Shown: positions 4,529-20,513 of the stretch, one piece after another
Numbering within the stretch: position 1 is the first letter of the stretch
Layout: each line of letters opens with the position of its first letter
DNA from: a virus
Lineage: Duplodnaviria; Heunggongvirae; Uroviricota; Caudoviricetes
Length of the DNA stretch: 20,815 nucleotides
IMG/VR virus record: IMGVR_UViG_2534681773_000020
Strand: one strand, 5' to 3'
Notes under the pieces: model-generated
The model's database searches: none
The model's input: the letters and a program-made list of their open reading frames with translations, nothing else
Told to the model about the DNA's origin: nothing
Made by a program: the position numbers and the translations under genes

Positions 4529-4586
4529 AAAAAGGGCGGCAGAGCAGTCACGGAGTAAAACTGATACCGCCAAACGTCACCAGAAA
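4529..4586 (-). ncRNA. dicF: DicF-like small regulatory RNA (about 53 nt plus U-tract)
   Basis: Reverse complement of 4534-4586 reads TTTCTGGTGACGTTTGGCGGTATCAGTTTTACTCCGTGACTGCTCTGCCGCCC followed by TTTTT, matching the recalled E. coli DicF sequence; located between upstream ORF and dicB as in the Qin dicB operon. Confidence 0.6.
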
Positions 4587-12238: not shown

Positions 12239-12475
12239 CGATATGGGAATTCCCATATCGGGTAAAAACGGTTTGCGGTAAAGCGAGAGTTAAGTAGAAT
12301 TGCTGCGGGTGCTTGAGGCTGTCTGCCTCGGGCATGCCACCGTAAGGCAGACAGAGAAAAGCCCCAGTTAACATTACGCGTCCTGCAAGACGCTTAACAT
12401 TAATCTGAGGCCCAATCTATGCTTCACAAACGTAGGTTAGCCTCTTACGCGCCGAAAGGCAAGGAGAAGCAGGCT
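12239..12475. promoter_or_regulatory. Structured leader/regulatory region upstream of hok-like toxin (candidate mok-leader and antisense Sok-like RNA region)
   Basis: 22-bp perfect palindrome CGATATGGGAATTCCCATATCG (12239-12260); 10-bp inverted repeat CTGTCTGCCT/AGGCAGACAG (about 12319-12354); direct repeat TTAACATTA x2 flanking GCGTC/GACGC hairpin (about 12368-12402). Confidence 0.4.
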
Positions 12476-12631
12476 ATGAAGCAGCAAAAGGCGATGTTAA
12501 TCGCCCTGATCGTCATCTGTTTAACCGTCATAGTGACGGCACTGGTAACGAGGAAAGACCTCTGCGAGGTACGAATCCGAACCGGCCAGACGGAGGTCGC
12601 TGTCTTCACAGCTTACGAACCTGAGGAGTAA
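12476..12631 (+). CDS. hokD: Hok/Gef-family type I toxin (51 aa)
   Basis: MKQQKAMLIALIVICLTVIVTALVTRKDLCEVRIRTGQTEVAVFTAYEPEE matches the Hok family signature and the recalled HokD/RelF sequence; AAGGAGAAG SD; in-frame upstream extension from 12419 may correspond to a mok-like frame. Confidence 0.8.
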   Translation: MKQQKAMLIALIVICLTVIVTALVTRKDLCEVRIRTGQTEVAVFTAYEPEE

Positions 12632-14128: not shown

Positions 14129-14494
14129 ATGACTGAACGCATAGAATTTGTTTTGCCTTACCCGCCAACGGTGAACACTTACTGGCGACGTCGTGGCAGC
14201 ACATATTTTGTATCAAAAGCCGGTGAGCGTTATCGCCGTGATGTGGCGCTTATTGTTCGCCAGCAGCGGCTGAAATTAAACCTGTCCGGAAGGCTGGCGA
14301 TAAAGATTATTGCAGAGCCACCGGATAAACGTCGTCGTGACCTGGACAATATCCTGAAAGCACCACTGGATGCGCTGACGCATGCCGGACTTCTCATAGA
14401 CGACGAGCAGTTTGATGAAATCAATATTGTGCGCGGTCAGCGCGTTCCTGGGGGACGGCTGGGCGTGAAGATTTACAAAATTGAGAGTGAGTGA
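14129..14494 (+). CDS. rusA: RusA Holliday junction resolvase
   Basis: 121 aa; start abuts previous stop; RusA-family motifs LPYPPTVNTYW and RRDLDNILKAPLDAL. Confidence 0.85.
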   Translation: MTERIEFVLPYPPTVNTYWRRRGSTYFVSKAGERYRRDVALIVRQQRLKLNLSGRLAIKIIAEPPDKRRRDLDNILKAPLDALTHAGLLIDDEQFDEINIVRGQRVPGGRLGVKIYKIESE

Positions 14495-15045
14495 TCGTAA
14501 ATATGATATACCCGGAAATTACAGGCAAAAGCGGCGAGCATTTACGTCTAAAAACGCTGGAAGCCGTCTGGATCCAGGGGAAATTACGGATGTGGGGGCG
14601 TTGGTCGTATATAGGTGGTGGCAAACCAGGAAATATGTTCAATCAGTTGCTGGCATCCAAAAAACTGACAAAAACCGCAATCAATGAAGCCCTGCGTAGA
14701 ATCAGGGAGTCAGGGATTGATAAACCAGAGCTGGAAGCATTCTTGCGAGAGATGATCGCTGGCAGACAGAAGAGCTGGTTGTCTCACTGTACTGATGCAG
14801 AGGCGTTACGCATTGATGGGGTGATAAGTAAAGCGCTTGCACGTTATCCTGGATTGATTGATATCCTGCGGCAAAGGTACGAAGGGCGGGGGATGAGTAA
14901 ACGCAAAATGGCTGAATTGTTGAATGAGGTGCACCCGGAATGGTGTTTTAGTACATGCGAAAAGCGAATTGCTAATTGGTTGGCTGTTGCTGAATATGCG
15001 CTATACATCCCTATGCGAGAATCGTTTGCTCAAAAAATGTCTTGA
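14491..15045 (+). CDS. Q: Late gene antiterminator Q-like protein
   Basis: 184-aa ORF (GTG 14491, or ATG 14503) directly upstream of a short intrinsic terminator and the late genes; position and size match Q of 82/Qin-type phages. Confidence 0.7.
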   Translation: MIVNMIYPEITGKSGEHLRLKTLEAVWIQGKLRMWGRWSYIGGGKPGNMFNQLLASKKLTKTAINEALRRIRESGIDKPELEAFLREMIAGRQKSWLSHCTDAEALRIDGVISKALARYPGLIDILRQRYEGRGMSKRKMAELLNEVHPEWCFSTCEKRIANWLAVAEYALYIPMRESFAQKMS

Positions 15046-15130: not shown

Positions 15131-15153
15131 ACCCGCTTTATGCGGGTTTTTTT
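15131..15153 (+). terminator. Intrinsic terminator (tR'-like) about 100 nt downstream of Q
   Basis: ACCCGC-TTTAT-GCGGGT stem-loop followed by seven T. Confidence 0.65.
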
Positions 15154-15276
15154 ATGTCTGAAAAACGGCACAGAACATTAAACGCGCTGGTAGTTGTGAA
15201 TACTGGTCTTTCAGCTTGCTGGCTTTTTCGACAAGAGGTATTGGTATGTCACGTTAACCAGAAAAGGGAAAAAGGC

Positions 15277-15474
15277 ATGCTAAAACAGCAGGATATGACC
15301 GAAACCGCCAGAGTGGTGTTTAATGAATTAAGCGTCACCGAACCGGCGACCGTCGGGGAAATTGCGCAGAATACTTACCTTTCACGCGAACGCTGCCAGT
15401 TAATACTGACTCAGCTTGTTATGGCGGGTCTGGCAGATTATCAGTTCGGTTGTTACAGACGCCTTCCGCAGTGA
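15277..15474 (+). CDS. Hypothetical small protein (65 aa), possible winged-helix
   Basis: ATG at 15277 with AAGGGAAAAAGG upstream; ORF track start at 15154 lies inside the terminator T-tract and is less likely. Confidence 0.45.
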   Translation: MLKQQDMTETARVVFNELSVTEPATVGEIAQNTYLSRERCQLILTQLVMAGLADYQFGCYRRLPQ

Positions 15475-15624
15475 AGGCTTTTTAATTTGTGGTAATGGGC
15501 GGCTGGTGGGTGTTAGCGGCACCTGCCAGCCATCTGCTCATGCGTTGGGGTCACAAGCAAACCTCAGGCCCATCTGCTTTGCGCAAAAGCGGCATGAGCC
15601 TATCAGAGAAGTGCTTATTGATCT

Positions 15625-16674
15625 ATGATTAATACTGTAAAAATATCCAGTTGTGAGTTAATCAACGCTGATTGCCTGGAATTTATCCAGACCTTACCGG
15701 AAAACTCTGTCGATCTGATAGTCACAGACCCGCCATACTTTAAAGTGAAGCCCGAGGGCTGGGATAACCAGTGGGAGGGCGACGATGATTACCTGAAATG
15801 GCTGGACCAGTGTCTGGCGCAGTTCTGGCGGGTACTGAAGCCTGCCGGAAGTCTTTACCTGTTCTGTGGTCATCGCCTGGCATCTGACACCGAAATCATG
15901 ATGCGTGAGCGCTTTAATGTGCTGAACCACATTATCTGGGCGAAGCCGTCCGGACGCTGGAACGGGTGCAATAAGGAAAGTCTGCGGGCGTATTTTCCGG
16001 CAACAGAGCGCATTCTGTTTGCAGAACATTATCAGGGACCGTATCGCCCGAAAGATGATGGCTATGTGGCACAGGGGCGCGAGCTAAAACAGCACGTCAT
16101 GGCCCCGCTGATTTCTTACTTTCGTGATGCGCGTAAATCACTGGGAATAACGTCAAAACAGATAGCGGAAGCCACCGGAAAGAAAAACATGGCTTCGCAC
16201 TGGTTTGGTACCAGTCAGTGGCAGTTACCGAACGAGGGTAATTACAACAAATTGCAGGCGTTGTTTGCGCGTGTTGCGGCAGAAAAACATCAGCGCGGGG
16301 AACTGGAAAAGCCACACCACCAGCTGGTCAGCACATACAGTGAGCTGAACCGGCAGTATACGGAACTGCTGAGTGAATATAAAAATTTGCGGCGGTATTT
16401 CGGTGTGACGGCGCAGGTTCCGTACACCGATGTCTGGACGCATAAACCGGTGCAGTACTATCCAGGGAAACATCCGTGCGAAAAAACGGCAGAAATGCTG
16501 CAGCAGATAATCAACGCGAGCAGTCGTCCGGGAGACCTGGTTGCAGATTTTTTTATGGGTTCAGGTTCAACGGTAAAAGCGGCGATGGCACTGGGGCGTT
16601 GTGCGATTGGTGTTGAGCTGGAGACAGGACGTTTTGAACAGACAGTCAGGGAAGTTCAGGATTTAATCGTTTGA
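15625..16674 (+). CDS. Orphan DNA methyltransferase, beta-class N6-adenine/N4-cytosine (PF01555-like)
   Basis: 349 aa; motif IV VTDPPYF near N-terminus and AdoMet motif I FFMGSGST near C-terminus; no adjacent restriction endonuclease. Confidence 0.9.
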   Translation: MINTVKISSCELINADCLEFIQTLPENSVDLIVTDPPYFKVKPEGWDNQWEGDDDYLKWLDQCLAQFWRVLKPAGSLYLFCGHRLASDTEIMMRERFNVLNHIIWAKPSGRWNGCNKESLRAYFPATERILFAEHYQGPYRPKDDGYVAQGRELKQHVMAPLISYFRDARKSLGITSKQIAEATGKKNMASHWFGTSQWQLPNEGNYNKLQALFARVAAEKHQRGELEKPHHQLVSTYSELNRQYTELLSEYKNLRRYFGVTAQVPYTDVWTHKPVQYYPGKHPCEKTAEMLQQIINASSRPGDLVADFFMGSGSTVKAAMALGRCAIGVELETGRFEQTVREVQDLIV

Positions 16675-16723
16675 AACGGATGAGATTGCAGAATTAATTA
16701 CGCACCATTATTATTCTGCTCCC

Positions 16724-16799
16724 GGCCCTTTAGCTCAGTGGTGAGAGCGAGCGACTCATAATCGCCAGGTCGCTGGTTCAAATCCAGCAAGGGCCACCA
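16724..16799 (+). tRNA. ileZ: tRNA with anticodon CAT (Ile2 lysidine-type or Met; resembles ileX/ileZ class), CCA encoded
   Basis: Cloverleaf folded by hand: acceptor GGCCCTT/AAGGGCC, D-stem GCTC/GAGC, anticodon loop CTCATAA, T-arm GCTGG-TTCAAAT-CCAGC. Confidence 0.85.
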
Positions 16800-16899
16800 T
16801 CACAAACCGCCATTAGCTTATCAGGAAGAGCAGACGACACCATAACAGGGTTGTTGGTGCGGGGGCGGGTCCCCGATGGCGGTCCATTATCGGTATTCT

Positions 16900-16976
16900 G
16901 CGTTGTTAGCTCAGCCGGACAGAGCAATTGCCTTCTAAGCAATCGGTCAGTGGTTCGACTCCACTACAACGCGCCA
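16900..16976 (+). tRNA. argO: tRNA-Arg (anticodon TCT), CCA encoded
   Basis: Acceptor GCGTTGT/ACAACGC, D-stem GCTC/GAGC, anticodon stem ATTGC/GCAAT with loop CTTCTAA, T-arm AGTGG-TTCGACT-CCACT. Confidence 0.85.
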
Positions 16977-16988
16977 CACTTATTTTCC

Positions 16989-17016
16989 AGGCTCGCTTCG
17001 GCGGGCCTTTTTTGTA
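16989..17016 (+). terminator. Intrinsic terminator after tRNA-Arg
   Basis: GGCTCGC-TTCG-GCGGGCC hairpin followed by TTTTTTG. Confidence 0.5.
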
Positions 17017-17145
17017 TCTGCGCCACGCCCGGCGCATATCAACCACAGAGCCTTTCGGGGGTGAGCTTACGGAGTGGTCAGTGTGACTTTCTCTGTGGGC
17101 AGATCGCTCCCGGGCGTTGGCTCACCCACCCAAAGGAACGTCACG

Positions 17146-17577
17146 ATGTTTGGAATCTTCAAAAAGAAAACCCGCAGAGCGGCAGCGGAAATTAAAAAGT
17201 TTGAGAAACGCGATCTGGCACAGGCGGTGATTAACGCTGCATACCTGGTGGCCTATGCAGATGGTGAATGCGAGGCATCCGAGAAAGCGAAGATCGAACA
17301 GGTCTTACGTAATCAGCCTGCGTTGTCTGCGTTTACCTCGGAAATTAATGCGATTAGCGCAACCATTATCGGTCAGCTGGATACCAATTTTAAAATTGGT
17401 CGTCGTGCCGCGTTACGCGAGATTGAGGATGTGAAACACGATACGCGTGAAGCGGAAGATGTGCTGGATGTGGCGGTGGCCATTGCGGAGGCAGACGGCG
17501 AAATTGAGCCGGAAGAGCGCAAGGTGCTGGAAGAGATTGCCGGTGTTCTGGGTCTTCGTCTGGAGAATCACCTGTGA
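17146..17577 (+). CDS. TerB-like (tellurite-resistance TerB fold) protein, 143 aa
   Basis: Paired acidic motifs YADGECEASEKAKIEQVL and EADGEIEPEERKVLEEIAGVLGL typical of TerB domains; ATG 17146 with AAGGA upstream. Confidence 0.65.
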   Translation: MFGIFKKKTRRAAAEIKKFEKRDLAQAVINAAYLVAYADGECEASEKAKIEQVLRNQPALSAFTSEINAISATIIGQLDTNFKIGRRAALREIEDVKHDTREAEDVLDVAVAIAEADGEIEPEERKVLEEIAGVLGLRLENHL

Positions 17578-17741
17578 CGGTAAAACTGCGCCTGGCTGTG
17601 GCTGCACTCCTGCTGTTTCTGGTGGTGATGGTGGATTTCACCAGCAGAATCATGTCGGTGCTGGCGGATGGGGTGCTGGTCTGCGGCATTGTGGTATTGC
17701 TGTGGCCGGTGATAAAAAGAAACAGCCTGCATAATGCTTGA
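17574..17741 (+). CDS. Small two-helix membrane ORF (55 aa) coupled to TerB-like gene
   Basis: GTG at 17574 overlaps TerB-like stop (GTGA); translation VTVKLRLAVAALLLFLVVMVDFTSRIMSVLADGVLVCGIVVLLWPVIKRNSLHNA is strongly hydrophobic. Confidence 0.4.
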   Translation: MTVKLRLAVAALLLFLVVMVDFTSRIMSVLADGVLVCGIVVLLWPVIKRNSLHNA

Positions 17742-17922
17742 TTTTTTTATTTGCTGTTTATTAAAAACACTTCTGCATGGTGAATCCCCCTGTGCGGAGG
17801 GGCGACTGGTGTAGGTAGCATTTATTATGTTATAGGCAAGCCGACGCGGGTTCAGTGACACCGGCTGAATTCACCGGGAGGCACCCGGCACCATGCAAGA
17901 AAAAGAATGTGTATGCAAACAT

Positions 17923-17948
17923 GCCCCTCTCCGGAGGGGCATTTTTTA
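17923..17948 (+). terminator. Intrinsic terminator
   Basis: GCCCCTC-TCCG-GAGGGGC stem-loop followed by ATTTTTTAT. Confidence 0.55.
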
Positions 17949-18162
17949 TGGGTAAAAAATGCCCGAATGGGTTCGGGCAATAGCATGAGATACTGATATT
18001 GTTGTGTTGTTATCGTGTGGATTTTAACCAGGGTTTATCAGGCTGCGCAACTGCGTGGCCTTTTTTCATTTCTTGGGCTGTAGTCCCCGTGTGTCATTCA
18101 GGCTTCCGGACTACAGCCCACTCCATATCTGATTTAATACACTATCCCGGCCGGGAGGAATA

Positions 18163-20013
18163 ATGACATTTAAACATTATGATGTTGTCAGGGCGGCGTC
18201 GCCGTCAGACCTTGCGGAAAAGCTGACACACAAACTGAAAGAGGGCTGGCAGCCGTTTGGTAGTCCGGTGGCCATAACCCCTTATACCCTGATGCAGGCG
18301 ATTACAGCAGAAGGTGATGTGGTGGTCAGTGGTGCAACTGAGCCGGATTGGTACTACGTCATCGTACTGGCCGGGCAATCCAATGCCATGGCTTACGGTG
18401 AAGGGCTTCCGCTGCCGGATTCATACGATGCTCCGGATCCGCGCATTAAACAGCTGGCGCGCCGCAGTACAGTTACGCCGGGTGGGGCTGCCTGCAGATA
18501 TAACGATATTATTCCGGCCGACCACTGCCTGCATGATGTGCAGGATATGAGTACGCTGAATCATCCGAAGGCAGACCTGAGCAAAGGGCAGTACGGCTGT
18601 GTCGGCCAGGGCTTACATATTGCCAAAAAACTGCTTCCGTATATCCCGAATAACGCGGGGATCCTGCTGGTACCATGCTGTCGTGGTGGTTCGGCATTCA
18701 CCCAGGGCGCGGAGGGGACATTCAGTGCGGACGCGGGGGCCAGCCAGGATTCGGCACGCTGGGGTGTGGGTAAACCGTTATATCAGGACCTGATTGCGCG
18801 CACCAAAGCTGCATTACAGAAGAACCCGAAAAATGTGTTGCTGGCGGTGTGCTGGATGCAGGGAGAGTTTGACATGAGCGCCGCCACCCACGCACAGCAA
18901 CCTGCGCTGTTTACAGCCATGCTGACACAGTTTCGTGTTGACCTCTCCGTGTTTAACGCGCAGTGCCATGGTGGCAGTGCTGCAGATGTGCCGTGGATTT
19001 GTGGTGACACGACGTATTACTGGAAAAATACATACGCTACCCAGTACGACACCGTGTACGGCGGGTATAAAAACAGGGAGAGTGAGGGCGTTTATTTTGT
19101 GCCCTTCATGACAGACGGTAACGGCGTCAATACCGCCACTAACGCGCCGGCAGAAGATCCGGATATTCCGGCATCAGGATATTACGGTGCGGCATCGAGA
19201 ACGAATGGAAACCAGGTATCATCAAACCGCCCGACACATTTCAGTTCATGGGCGCGCAGGAGCATTATTCCGGATCGTCTGGCAACCGCTATTCTGAACG
19301 CAGCCGGGCGCACCTCAGCCTTCATCAGTGGTAAGGCACCGGAAATCAAACCCTCGCCCGGCGGCAACACGCCATCGGGTCCGTCTGCAGATACGTCCGT
19401 TCGCACAATCTCCCTGCTGCCGACAGCCGGAGAGGCTGCTGCGCAGGGCTGGACCATTAAGGACGGCGGAATTCAGTTGTCGGGTGGTGTATTTAAGATC
19501 GCCAAGCAGAGCAATAAAACCTGGTCCCTGACGCATCCGGTGGATGACGCAATTACCCTGCTGACACAGGGCGGCAGACTGACCTGTAAGTTCCGCCTGT
19601 CAGGCGCGCTGACCAACAATCAGTTCGGGCTGGGGATTTATCTGTATACGGATGCTCCCGTTCCTGATGGTGTGGCGATGACGGGTACCGGTAATCCGTT
19701 CCTGATGTCGTACTTCACTCAGACCACTGACGGCAGAGTGAATCTGATGCATCACAGGAAAGCCGGAAACACGAAGCTGGGGGAGTTCGGCGATTACGGT
19801 AACGACTGGCAGACGCTGGAGCTGGTGTTCACCGCCGGCAGTGCCACGGTTACTCCGAAACTGAATGGAGTGGCTGGCCCGGCATTCCAGGTCATAAAAG
19901 ACAGTCTGACACTGGGGCTGAATGCGCTGACGCTGACGGATATTACCAAAAATGCAGCGTATGGCGTTGAGATAGAAAGTCTGGTGCTGGAGATAAATGC
20001 ACCGGCAGCATAA
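18163..20013 (+). CDS. nanS-p: Prophage sialate 9-O-acetylesterase (NanS-p type; N-terminal DUF1737-like region plus SGNH/SASA esterase domain)
   Basis: 616 aa; GGGAGGAA SD; N-terminus MTFKHYDVVRAASPSDLAEKL; SASA block VLAGQSNAMAYGEG; the position downstream of the late tRNAs is where Stx phages carry this gene. Confidence 0.8.
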   Translation: MTFKHYDVVRAASPSDLAEKLTHKLKEGWQPFGSPVAITPYTLMQAITAEGDVVVSGATEPDWYYVIVLAGQSNAMAYGEGLPLPDSYDAPDPRIKQLARRSTVTPGGAACRYNDIIPADHCLHDVQDMSTLNHPKADLSKGQYGCVGQGLHIAKKLLPYIPNNAGILLVPCCRGGSAFTQGAEGTFSADAGASQDSARWGVGKPLYQDLIARTKAALQKNPKNVLLAVCWMQGEFDMSAATHAQQPALFTAMLTQFRVDLSVFNAQCHGGSAADVPWICGDTTYYWKNTYATQYDTVYGGYKNRESEGVYFVPFMTDGNGVNTATNAPAEDPDIPASGYYGAASRTNGNQVSSNRPTHFSSWARRSIIPDRLATAILNAAGRTSAFISGKAPEIKPSPGGNTPSGPSADTSVRTISLLPTAGEAAAQGWTIKDGGIQLSGGVFKIAKQSNKTWSLTHPVDDAITLLTQGGRLTCKFRLSGALTNNQFGLGIYLYTDAPVPDGVAMTGTGNPFLMSYFTQTTDGRVNLMHHRKAGNTKLGEFGDYGNDWQTLELVFTAGSATVTPKLNGVAGPAFQVIKDSLTLGLNALTLTDITKNAAYGVEIESLVLEINAPAA

Positions 20014-20306: not shown

Positions 20307-20513
20307 ATGGAAAAAATCACAACAGGTGTGTCATACACCACGTCAGCGGTGGGGACGGGATACTGGTTACTGCAGCTGCTGGACAAAGTCTCTCCGTCCC
20401 AGTGGGTGGCAATAGGTGTGCTGGGGAGTCTGCTGTTTGGCCTGCTGACGTATCTTACTAACCTGTATTTCAAAATCAGAGAGGACCGTCGTAAGGCGGC
20501 GCGGGGAGAGTAA
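20307..20513 (+). CDS. Class II holin (phage 21 S-like, holin family 2)
   Basis: 68 aa; two hydrophobic segments and charged C-terminus [13 protein letters not shown]; first gene of the lysis cassette. Confidence 0.85.

What the first reader, a model, noticed from the sequence alone, without database searches (positions are those of the whole stretch)
17074..17741. TerB-like protein plus coupled small membrane ORF occupy the slot where Stx phages carry stxAB
The gene order Q, methylase, tRNA-Ile, tRNA-Arg, cargo, nanS-p, holin matches Stx-converting phages, but instead of toxin genes the cargo is a 143-aa TerB-fold protein overlapping (GTGA) a 55-aa two-helix membrane ORF. This is a highly expressed late-operon moron site, so whatever it does is produced at induction. 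TerB-domain proteins are linked to membrane-stress and phage-defence-associated tellurite-resistance clusters.
Basis: partly seen in the sequence, partly recalled or inferred. Interest (0 to 1): 0.6.

Follow-up and report, generated by a model that had tools for sequence, protein, structure and literature searches.

The report
Known phage tciA/tciB pair, stx slot
The two genes are real and sit exactly where related phages carry Shiga toxin genes, but they are the already named and widespread phage gene pair tciA/tciB (a TerB-family protein plus a small DUF3927 membrane protein), whose function has never been tested.

Summary

The synteny claim also holds. Against an Stx2a phage, homology runs through the methylase, the tRNAs and a terminator to 17024. 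It resumes at 17757, at the STnc100 sRNA gene. So 17025-17756 replaces stx2AB. None of 130 phage records encoding a TciA relative is named as Stx-converting or turned out to be a known Stx phage, and none of 80 IMG/VR loci had stx within 3 kb.

It is not new. The pair is tciA/tciB, named in phage P1 and annotated under that name in lambdoid phage JLK-2012. It corresponds to PHROGs 632 and 1470 and is present in about 789 of 5426 complete E. coli genomes.

The pair is also conserved in a virulent N4-like phage and in Erwinia jumbo phages, and tciA is under strong purifying selection. That argues for a role in lytic growth rather than tellurite resistance.

Most likely it is a membrane-associated TciA-TciB complex made by Q-dependent read-through. 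Its actual activity is inferred, not shown. Interest is low.

The parts
14491..15045 (+). Q-like late antiterminator (DUF1133 / Phage_antitermQ)
   Evidence: Pfam DUF1133 E=6.4e-103; PF06530 at 28.3 bits against a cut-off of 26
15625..16674 (+). N6/N4 DNA methylase, shared with Stx2 phages
   Evidence: PF01555 E=1.1e-42; 88% nt identity to the Stx2_EH1910 methylase region
16724..16799 (+). tRNA with CAU anticodon (ileZ-type tRNA-Ile2; ARAGORN calls it Met)
   Evidence: PGAP calls it tRNA-Ile in the near-identical locus L008; 86% identical to P1 trnI
16809..16885 (+). Degenerate argN-like tRNA remnant
   Evidence: Aligns to tRNA-Arg(tcg) of Stx2_EH1910 but its anticodon arm is disrupted; not called by ARAGORN
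16900..16976 (+). tRNA-Arg(UCU)
16989..17016 (+). Intrinsic terminator after the tRNAs; last element shared with Stx2 phages on the left
   Evidence: 8-bp stem with 6 GC pairs plus a T run; conserved in Stx2_EH1910 and JLK-2012
17025..17756 (+). Cassette that takes the place of stx2AB (leader + tciA + tciB)
   Evidence: BLASTN breakpoints against L004: window 17024 = L004 3671 and window 17757 = L004 5041. stx2A-stx2B lie at L004 3714-4954
17048..17123 (+). Long imperfect hairpin in the tciA leader (function unknown)
   Evidence: MFE -58.2 kcal/mol for 17012-17160, z=-2.18; conserved, but 0 compensatory pairs in 7 sequences
17146..17577 (+). tciA: 143-aa TerB-family protein with a basic N-terminal tail and two ADGExExxE motifs (residues 38-46 and 116-124)
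   Evidence: 100% identical to the phage Evi protein
17574..17741 (+). tciB: 55-aa DUF3927 protein with two hydrophobic helices; GTG start overlaps the tciA stop (GTGA)
17749..17953 (+). STnc100-family sRNA gene with its terminator; homology with Stx1 and Stx2 phages resumes here
   Evidence: Rfam RF02076 at 153.6 bits; terminator at 17921-17942
17954..18015 (-). AgvB anti-sRNA gene
   Evidence: Rfam RF02702 at 96.5 bits
18163..20013 (+). nanS-p-type sialate O-acetylesterase (DUF1737-SASA-DUF6645)
   Evidence: 95-97% nt identity to the yjhS genes of Stx1 phages and JLK-2012
20307..20513 (+). Holin
   Evidence: ORF; aligns to annotated holin genes in L001, L004, L005 and L006

Best explanation
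This is the phage accessory gene pair tciA/tciB, first named in phage P1. Here it sits as the cargo cassette of a lambdoid prophage late operon, at the position that stxAB occupies in Stx phages.

Shown: TciA is an all-helical TerB-family protein. TciB is a DUF3927 protein with two hydrophobic helices. The two genes are tightly coupled (GTGA overlap) and stay adjacent in unrelated phage lineages, both temperate and virulent. tciA is under strong purifying selection. The cassette lies downstream of a Q-type antiterminator and behind an intrinsic terminator, and no sigma-70-like promoter of its own was found.

Inferred:
(a) Transcription comes mainly from Q-modified polymerase reading through the terminators, so it occurs at induction or lytic growth.
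(b) TciB, with both ends in the cytoplasm by the positive-inside rule, and the basic N-terminal tail of TciA (net charge +7 over residues 1-22) hold TciA at the cytoplasmic face of the inner membrane as a complex.
(c) This complex conditions or guards the membrane of the infected cell, for example against superinfecting phage, pore-forming colicins or membrane-triggered abortive defence. That would secure the burst rather than give the lysogen tellurite resistance.

My confidence is about 0.95 for identity and location, about 0.6 for a membrane-associated TciA-TciB complex, and about 0.3 for the protective role.
For: Identity:
- Pfam TerB and DUF3927.
- PHROG 632 'tellurite resistance' at E=1.7e-69 and PHROG 1470 'TciB-like' at E=4e-30.
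- JLK-2012 annotates the same pair as tciA/tciB.
- P1 tciA-tciB-tciC; P1 TciB is DUF3927 at E=7.1e-31.

Fold.

Cassette swap.

Prevalence:
- 789 of 5426 complete E. coli genomes carry at least 80% of the cassette, annotated as 'TerB family protein | DUF3927 family protein'.
- 551 IMG/VR stretches encode a relative.

Pair conservation and coupling:
- P1 (1-nt overlap), N4-like virulent phage Pollock (adjacent; TciA 28% identical) and Erwinia jumbo phage Asesino (3-nt gap).
- Other E. coli prophages have the 4-nt overlap, with the pair sometimes directly upstream of the holin.
- Natural frameshift fusions TciA-TciB exist: P0004 and P0066.

Selection: dN/dS for tciA is 0.014-0.044.

Conserved N-terminal MFGxxKKK and the two acidic ADG...E motifs.

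Expression logic: terminators at 16989-17008 and 17921-17942, and no + strand promoter-like site between 14900 and 18300.

Literature:
- TerB is membrane-associated or amphitropic, and TerB domains occur in the defence systems Bunzi, Shango and Dionysus, where a membrane-surveillance role is proposed (10.1101/2022.05.11.491447; 10.1101/2025.09.30.679545).
- P1 tciA/B/C are non-essential by CRISPRi (PMC10695390).
Against: - I found no experiment on TciA or TciB function. The P1 name rests on homology only, and the Pollock authors state that the role in a lytic phage is unknown (PMC4319500).
- Expression timing differs between phages: late operon here, C1-controlled ban operon in P1, early or middle region in Pollock. 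The late-operon logic therefore does not generalise.
- A TciA-TciB contact was not tested. TciB's cytoplasmic tails are only about 6-8 residues long.
- TerB relatives in Vibrio phage K481 and Sinorhizobium phage phiM5 have no small membrane ORF downstream. Pseudomonas phage AF has an unrelated one-helix ORF there. Phage 434 has DUF3927 without TerB. The partnership is therefore not obligatory.
- The promoter scan is a strict consensus scan and could miss a weak promoter active in the lysogen.
Confidence: 0.55

Rival explanations
1. Lysogenic-conversion resistance gene: the prophage expresses TciA/TciB in the lysogen and gives the host tellurite and/or colicin resistance, as the database name 'tellurite resistance' implies.
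For: TerB homology. The ter cluster of IncHI2 plasmids confers tellurite, pore-forming colicin and phage resistance, as quoted in PMC4319500 and PMC7649339. A phage-plasmid review suggests this role for tciABC (PMC11652158).
Against: No other ter gene (terZ, A, C, D, E) lies in the window or next to the pair in any locus examined. The cassette lies behind an intrinsic terminator with no detectable promoter. The same pair is kept in strictly virulent N4-like and jumbo phages, which make no lysogens. TciA is only distantly related to ter-operon TerB (36.7 bits to 2JXU).
Confidence: 0.1
2. Counter-defence module: phage TciA mimics or titrates host TerB-type membrane-surveillance components (Shango, Bunzi, Dionysus or Ter-like systems), or masks the membrane signal they sense.
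For: TerB domains are components of validated defence systems. The pair is present in virulent, jumbo and temperate phages alike. Selection on tciA is strong.
Against: No significant match to any PADLOC defence model; the best is PDC-S48 at E=0.0035. There is no experimental hint, and the partners of those systems are absent. Phages with the pair infect hosts that are not known to share one TerB-type defence.
Confidence: 0.12
3. Lysis-timing accessory: TciB (two helices, holin-like in size) together with TciA modulates holin triggering.
For: In lambdoid prophages the pair lies in the late operon just upstream of the lysis cassette, in some directly before the holin. TciB is a small protein with two hydrophobic helices.
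Against: In P1 and Pollock the pair lies far from the lysis genes, in early or middle transcription units. There is no similarity to holin families. P1 knock-downs were scored non-essential.
Confidence: 0.1
4. Decaying passenger DNA with no current function.
For: Truncated and fused variants and an IS-flanked remnant exist.
Against: dN/dS for tciA is 0.014-0.044 at dS up to 0.66. The pair is conserved down to 28% identity across phage families. The reading frames are intact in hundreds of genomes.
Confidence: 0.03

Closest known systems
Phage P1 tciA-tciB-tciC operon (Lobocka et al. 2004; NC_005856 70233-70929)
   Same: TerB-family gene followed immediately by a DUF3927 gene. tRNA genes flank it, including a tRNA-Ile2(CAU) that is 86% identical to the window's. 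Non-essential accessory genes.
   Different: TciA is only 42% and TciB 50% identical. P1 has a third small gene, tciC, which is absent here. In P1 the genes lie in the C1-controlled ban operon, not in a Q-dependent late operon.
tciA/tciB of lambdoid phages JLK-2012, Evi and PPyecE_EH1910, and the PGAP pair WP_000466957.1 / WP_000216636.1
   Same: Same cassette at 97-100% TciA identity, in the same position between Q and tRNAs on one side and the esterase and holin on the other.
   Different: Upstream neighbours vary: Asn-Thr-Gly tRNAs in JLK-2012, a ParE-type toxin plus HTH gene in PPyecE, and an HTH gene instead of the methylase in strain 2015C-3163.
stx2AB / stx1AB cassettes of Stx-converting phages (e.g. 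Stx2_EH1910, Stx1_EH1995)
   Same: Same slot and same flanks: methylase, ileZ-arg tRNAs and terminator on the left; STnc100-type sRNA, esterase and holin on the right.
   Different: Unrelated cargo. Toxin genes are absent here, and TciA is absent from the Stx phage records.
TerB of the terZABCDE tellurite/colicin/phage-resistance cluster (structure 2JXU)
   Same: Same Pfam family and helical fold, and the same duplicated acidic ADG...E motif.
   Different: Distant in sequence. No TerC, TerD, TerZ, TerA or TerE partners; the partner is a DUF3927 mini-membrane protein.
TerB-domain components of the defence systems Shango (SngA), Bunzi (BnzA) and Dionysus (DinB)
   Same: TerB domain associated with membrane proteins; a membrane-surveillance role has been proposed.
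   Different: No PADLOC model match. None of their partner genes is present. This pair is encoded by phages, including virulent ones.

Membership tests
TerB family (Pfam PF05099) | Match to the family HMM above the curated gathering score | tested here: met
   60.2 bits against a cut-off of 24.4, E=2.9e-16, covering residues 26-138
TerB family (Pfam PF05099) | All-alpha helical-bundle fold like solved TerB-type proteins | tested here: met
TerB family (Pfam PF05099) | Duplicated acidic motif (A-D-G ... E) in the two halves of the domain | tested here: met
   ADGECEASE at residues 38-46 and ADGEIEPEE at residues 116-124. Of these, E46 and E124 are invariant in both alignments, D117 in the 13-sequence one, G118 in the 37-sequence one, and D39 and G40 nearly so. 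That this motif defines the family is from my knowledge of Anantharaman et al. 2012, which I could not read here.
ter-operon TerB (terZABCDE resistance cluster) | Encoded within a ter cluster alongside terC, terD and the others | tested here: not met
   Neighbours are phage genes and tRNAs in every locus inspected
ter-operon TerB (terZABCDE resistance cluster) | Confers tellurite, colicin or phage resistance | not testable with these tools
   Phenotypic; I found no published test for TciA
Phage tciA/tciB module (PHROG 632 + PHROG 1470) | Full-length match of protein 1 to PHROG 632 | tested here: met
   E=1.7e-69, residues 1-143 against profile positions 1-143 of 143
Phage tciA/tciB module (PHROG 632 + PHROG 1470) | Protein 2 is a DUF3927 / PHROG 1470 protein with two hydrophobic helices | tested here: met
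   PF13064 E=4.3e-17; PHROG 1470 E=4e-30; two hydrophobic segments and the conserved DFTS...ADG...WP..K pattern
Phage tciA/tciB module (PHROG 632 + PHROG 1470) | Genes adjacent and tightly coupled, same strand | tested here: met
   GTGA overlap here. Spacing ranges from a 4-nt overlap to a 3-nt gap in P1, Pollock, Asesino and other prophages.
Phage tciA/tciB module (PHROG 632 + PHROG 1470) | Third gene tciC, as in P1 | tested here: not met
   The only ORF after tciB is a 26-aa frame inside STnc100 with no likeness to TciC. tciC is also absent from the other non-P1 loci, so it does not define the pair.
TerB-containing anti-phage defence systems (Shango, Bunzi, Dionysus) | Match to the systems' protein models, and presence of their partner genes | tested here: not met
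   PADLOC gives only PDC-S48 at E=0.0035. No helicase, ATPase or pore-forming partner lies nearby. Dionysus is newer than PADLOC 2.0, so it was judged by partner genes only.
Stx-phage late-region cargo slot | Flanks on both sides homologous to the DNA that flanks stxAB | tested here: met
   Left flank extends to 17024 at 88% identity. Right flank starts at 17757 (Stx2 phage) and 17761 (Stx1 phage, 95%); alignment.

The most novel reading that the evidence does not exclude
TerB+DUF3927 may be a pan-phage membrane module, kept by lambdoid, P1-like, N4-like and jumbo phages of enterobacteria. It would actively block a membrane-level threat to the infected cell: superinfection, pore-forming colicins, or TerB-type membrane-surveillance immunity. 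It may spread as a small cassette that lands next to phage tRNA genes, since tRNAs sit immediately upstream of tciA in three unrelated lineages. Nothing here excludes this reading, and nothing tests it.
Probability: 0.15. Interest if true: 0.55.

Novelty: already known. Interest (0 to 1): 0.2.

Why it matters
It confirms that the Q-tRNA-to-esterase-holin interval of lambdoid prophages is an exchangeable cargo slot, in which stxAB and tciAB are alternative inserts with shared flanks. That is useful for annotating stx-negative 'Stx-like' prophages in STEC genomes. The pair is very common: about 15% of complete E. coli genomes carry it, and it is enriched in STEC serotypes among the hits listed. 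It is strongly conserved, yet its name rests only on homology. A simple deletion and expression study could assign a function to a gene pair found in hundreds of pathogen genomes and in virulent phages considered for therapy. The database label 'tellurite resistance' is probably misleading.

Tried and rejected
- Leader RNA element: I looked for a known RNA element or riboswitch in the 137-nt tciA leader. Rfam in E-value mode found only terminator-like partial hits. The long hairpin has z=-2.18 but no compensatory changes. It is left as an unproven feature.
- TciC-like third gene: rejected.
- Defence-system membership by PADLOC: rejected.
- The search for related loci with a diverse TciA alignment failed for lack of conserved stretches. 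The single-protein scan returned only near-identical E. coli prophage loci, so pairing in distant phages rests on a handful of annotated records.
- The P1 genome paper and the Anantharaman 2012 Ter paper are not held in the library. Statements about them come from GenBank notes or from citing papers.
- I tried to test the tellurite-resistance reading through the literature, looking for ter-negative but tciAB-positive strains. One search was rejected on syntax, and one search had no usable data.
- The HUSEC2011 hit under a 'DUF3927' pseudogene is just a 219-bp remnant between IS elements.
- The window as a whole has no near-identical complete genome; the best match covers 88% at 96.6% identity. 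It is a mosaic prophage.

Full report
**What is there**

On the + strand an ORF is open from 17074 to 17577. All relatives start at the ATG at 17146 (MFG...), which follows an AAGGA Shine-Dalgarno sequence. This gives a 143-aa protein.

A second ORF of 55 aa runs 17574-17741. It starts with a GTG that overlaps the first gene's stop as GTGA, with GGAG about 8 nt upstream.

Protein 1 matches Pfam TerB (PF05099, 60.2 bits, cut-off 24.4, E=2.9e-16). Protein 2 matches DUF3927 (PF13064, 62.3 bits, cut-off 25).

Only the start coordinate needs moving, from 17074 to 17146.

**Surroundings**

The order of features is:
- RusA (14129-14494)
- a Q-like DUF1133/antitermQ protein (14491-15045)
- a small ORF
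- an N6/N4 DNA methylase (15625-16674)
- tRNA(CAU) (16724-16799)
- a degenerate tRNA remnant
- tRNA-Arg(UCU) (16900-16976)
- an intrinsic terminator (16989-17008 plus T run)
- a 137-nt leader
- tciA and tciB
- the sRNA gene STnc100 (17749-17953, +) and the anti-sRNA gene AgvB (17954-18015, -)
- another terminator
- a DUF1737-SASA-DUF6645 esterase of the nanS-p type (18163-20013)
- a holin (20307-20513)

**Synteny with Stx phages**

BLASTN against Stx2a phage Stx2_EH1910 aligns window 15142-17024 with the phage's hypothetical gene, methylase, three tRNAs and terminator. It aligns window 17757-17945 with the DNA that follows stx2B. The annotated stx2A-stx2B genes lie exactly in the unaligned interval.

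Stx1 phages align from 17761 onwards at about 95% identity, through the esterase and the holin.

Window 17025-17756 is therefore a cassette that takes the place of stxAB.

- Of 130 phage records that encode a TciA relative, none is named as an Stx-converting phage, and the Escherichia-named hits that were listed (Evi, JLK-2012, P1-, D6- and N4-like phages) are not Stx phages. Meanwhile hundreds of Stx-converting phages match the flanks.
- None of 80 IMG/VR loci carrying the gene has stx1 or stx2 within 3 kb.

**It is a known pair**

- GenBank record JQ347801 (phage JLK-2012, from E. coli O55:H7) annotates the same two genes as tciA and tciB, in the same position.
- LC567835 calls the first one 'TciA/TerB-like protein'.
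- Phage Evi encodes a 100% identical TciA.
[quoted passage not shown] P1 TciB is a DUF3927 protein.
- PHROGs holds both families: 632 'tellurite resistance' and 1470 'TciB-like'.
- PGAP names them 'tellurite resistance TerB family protein' and 'DUF3927 family protein'. At least 80% of the 801-bp cassette is present in 789 of 5426 complete E. coli genomes. Many of the listed hits are O157:H7, O145, O111 and O121 strains.
- IMG/VR holds 551 matching stretches.
- A 2026 preprint lists TerB (PF05099) among the conserved neighbours of prophage sRNAs in these regions.

**What the comparison adds**

The TerB-DUF3927 pair is kept, always adjacent and on the same strand, in unrelated enterobacterial phages:
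- P1-like phage-plasmids
- the virulent N4-like phage Pollock (TciA 28% identical)
- Erwinia and Salmonella jumbo phages (68-76% identical)
- many lambdoid prophages, in some of which it lies directly upstream of the holin

Natural frameshift fusions of the two proteins exist.

Between diverged lambdoid copies, tciA has dN/dS of 0.014-0.044 at dS 0.40-0.66, and tciB has 0.17-0.47.

The partnership is not universal:
- Phage 434 has DUF3927 without TerB in the same slot.
- TerB relatives in Vibrio and Sinorhizobium phages have no small membrane ORF downstream.
- Pseudomonas phage AF has an unrelated one-helix ORF that overlaps the TerB stop.

**Likely mechanism**

Shown: the family, the fold, the coupling, the conservation, and the position behind a terminator with no promoter-like site on the + strand.

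Inferred: transcription is by Q-modified polymerase at induction.

TciB has basic residues at both ends (K4 and R6; K48 and R49) and a short DFTSR loop, which places both termini in the cytoplasm. TciA carries a conserved hydrophobic-then-basic N-terminus (MFGIFKKKTRR; net charge +7 over residues 1-22; pLDDT 60-67) and two acidic ADGExExxE motifs.

TerB has been reported as membrane-associated or amphitropic, and TerB domains occur in the defence systems Bunzi, Shango and Dionysus, where membrane surveillance has been proposed. Putting this together, the most economical model is a TciA-TciB complex on the cytoplasmic face of the inner membrane.

Virulent phages keep the pair, and no other ter gene accompanies it. 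I therefore favour a role during lytic growth, protecting or conditioning the infected cell's membrane, over tellurite resistance for the lysogen.

This last step is a hypothesis. I found no experiment beyond a P1 CRISPRi screen that scored tciA, tciB and tciC as non-essential. The Pollock authors state that the role is unknown.

**Rivals**

I considered lysogenic-conversion resistance, counter-defence against TerB-type immunity, lysis-timing control and functionless passenger DNA. Each is less well supported, and none except the last is excluded. PADLOC gave no defence-system match.

**Verdict**

Observation confirmed and interpretation supported. The feature is an already named, very common phage accessory gene pair in a known exchangeable slot. 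Interest is low. The open question is its function, which is directly testable by deletion and expression experiments.

Noticed in passing
window 16809-16885: A degenerate third tRNA (argN-like) lies between tRNA(CAU) and tRNA-Arg(UCU). It aligns to tRNA-Arg(tcg) of Stx2_EH1910, but its anticodon arm is disrupted and ARAGORN does not call it. The same two-tRNA pattern (Met/Ile2 plus Arg-tct only) occurs in about 30 of the 80 IMG/VR loci.
   Followed up: partly
window 17749-17953 (+) and 17954-18015 (-): The gap between tciB and the esterase holds a full-length STnc100-family sRNA gene (153.6 bits) and, on the opposite strand directly after it, the anti-sRNA gene AgvB (96.5 bits). Homology with Stx1 and Stx2 phages resumes at the start of STnc100, so the sRNA gene forms the right border of the cargo slot.
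   Followed up: partly
window 17048-17123: The tciA leader, which travels with the cassette, folds into a long imperfect hairpin. The MFE is -58.2 kcal/mol for 17012-17160, z=-2.18. There is no T run after it. It is conserved in 7 diverged copies with only one-sided (wobble) changes and no compensatory pairs.
   Followed up: partly
window 16977-17030 and 17128-17148; L004 3624-3716: stx2A and tciA share the post-tRNA terminator and about 30 nt beyond it. Both also have a closely similar context (AAAGGAAC) just before the start codon. This could be a recombination scar or just a shared strong Shine-Dalgarno sequence.
   Followed up: no
L001 5792-6198 (JLK-2012); L003 1849-3509 (P1); L013 612-1219 (Asesino): tRNA genes lie immediately upstream of tciA in three unrelated phage lineages. 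Lambdoid phages have Ile2-Arg or Asn-Thr-Gly. P1 has Asn and Thr upstream and Ile2 downstream. The Erwinia jumbo phage has Trp and Cys. In JLK-2012, homology with the window begins in the T-arm and terminator of a different tRNA.
   Followed up: partly
L009 2112-3344 (phage 434): In the same Q-to-esterase slot, phage 434 carries a 247-aa membrane protein (PHROG 1521, no Pfam match), then a DUF3927 TciB homologue without any TerB gene, then another small membrane protein.
   Followed up: partly
L007 3501-3719 (E. coli HUSEC2011 chromosome): A 219-bp remnant of the tciA leader and 5' end (85% identity) sits between IS21 and IS200/IS605 pseudogenes outside a prophage. PGAP annotates it as a partial 'DUF3927 domain-containing protein'.
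   Followed up: partly
P0004 (197 aa) and P0066 (170 aa): Single polypeptides fuse TciA to TciB through a frameshift near the GTGA overlap, in E. coli PA11 and in an ENA assembly. They may be real mutants or sequencing errors.
   Followed up: no
window 12307-12481 (+) and 4534-4585 (-): Rfam finds a sok antitoxin RNA (hok/sok-type locus, 116 bits) and a DicF sRNA (76.7 bits) elsewhere in the prophage.
   Followed up: no
L011 1932-2153 (Pseudomonas phage AF): An unannotated 73-aa ORF with one strongly hydrophobic helix starts with a GTG overlapping the stop of the TerB-like gene. It is a coupled small membrane partner of a different family from DUF3927.
   Followed up: no
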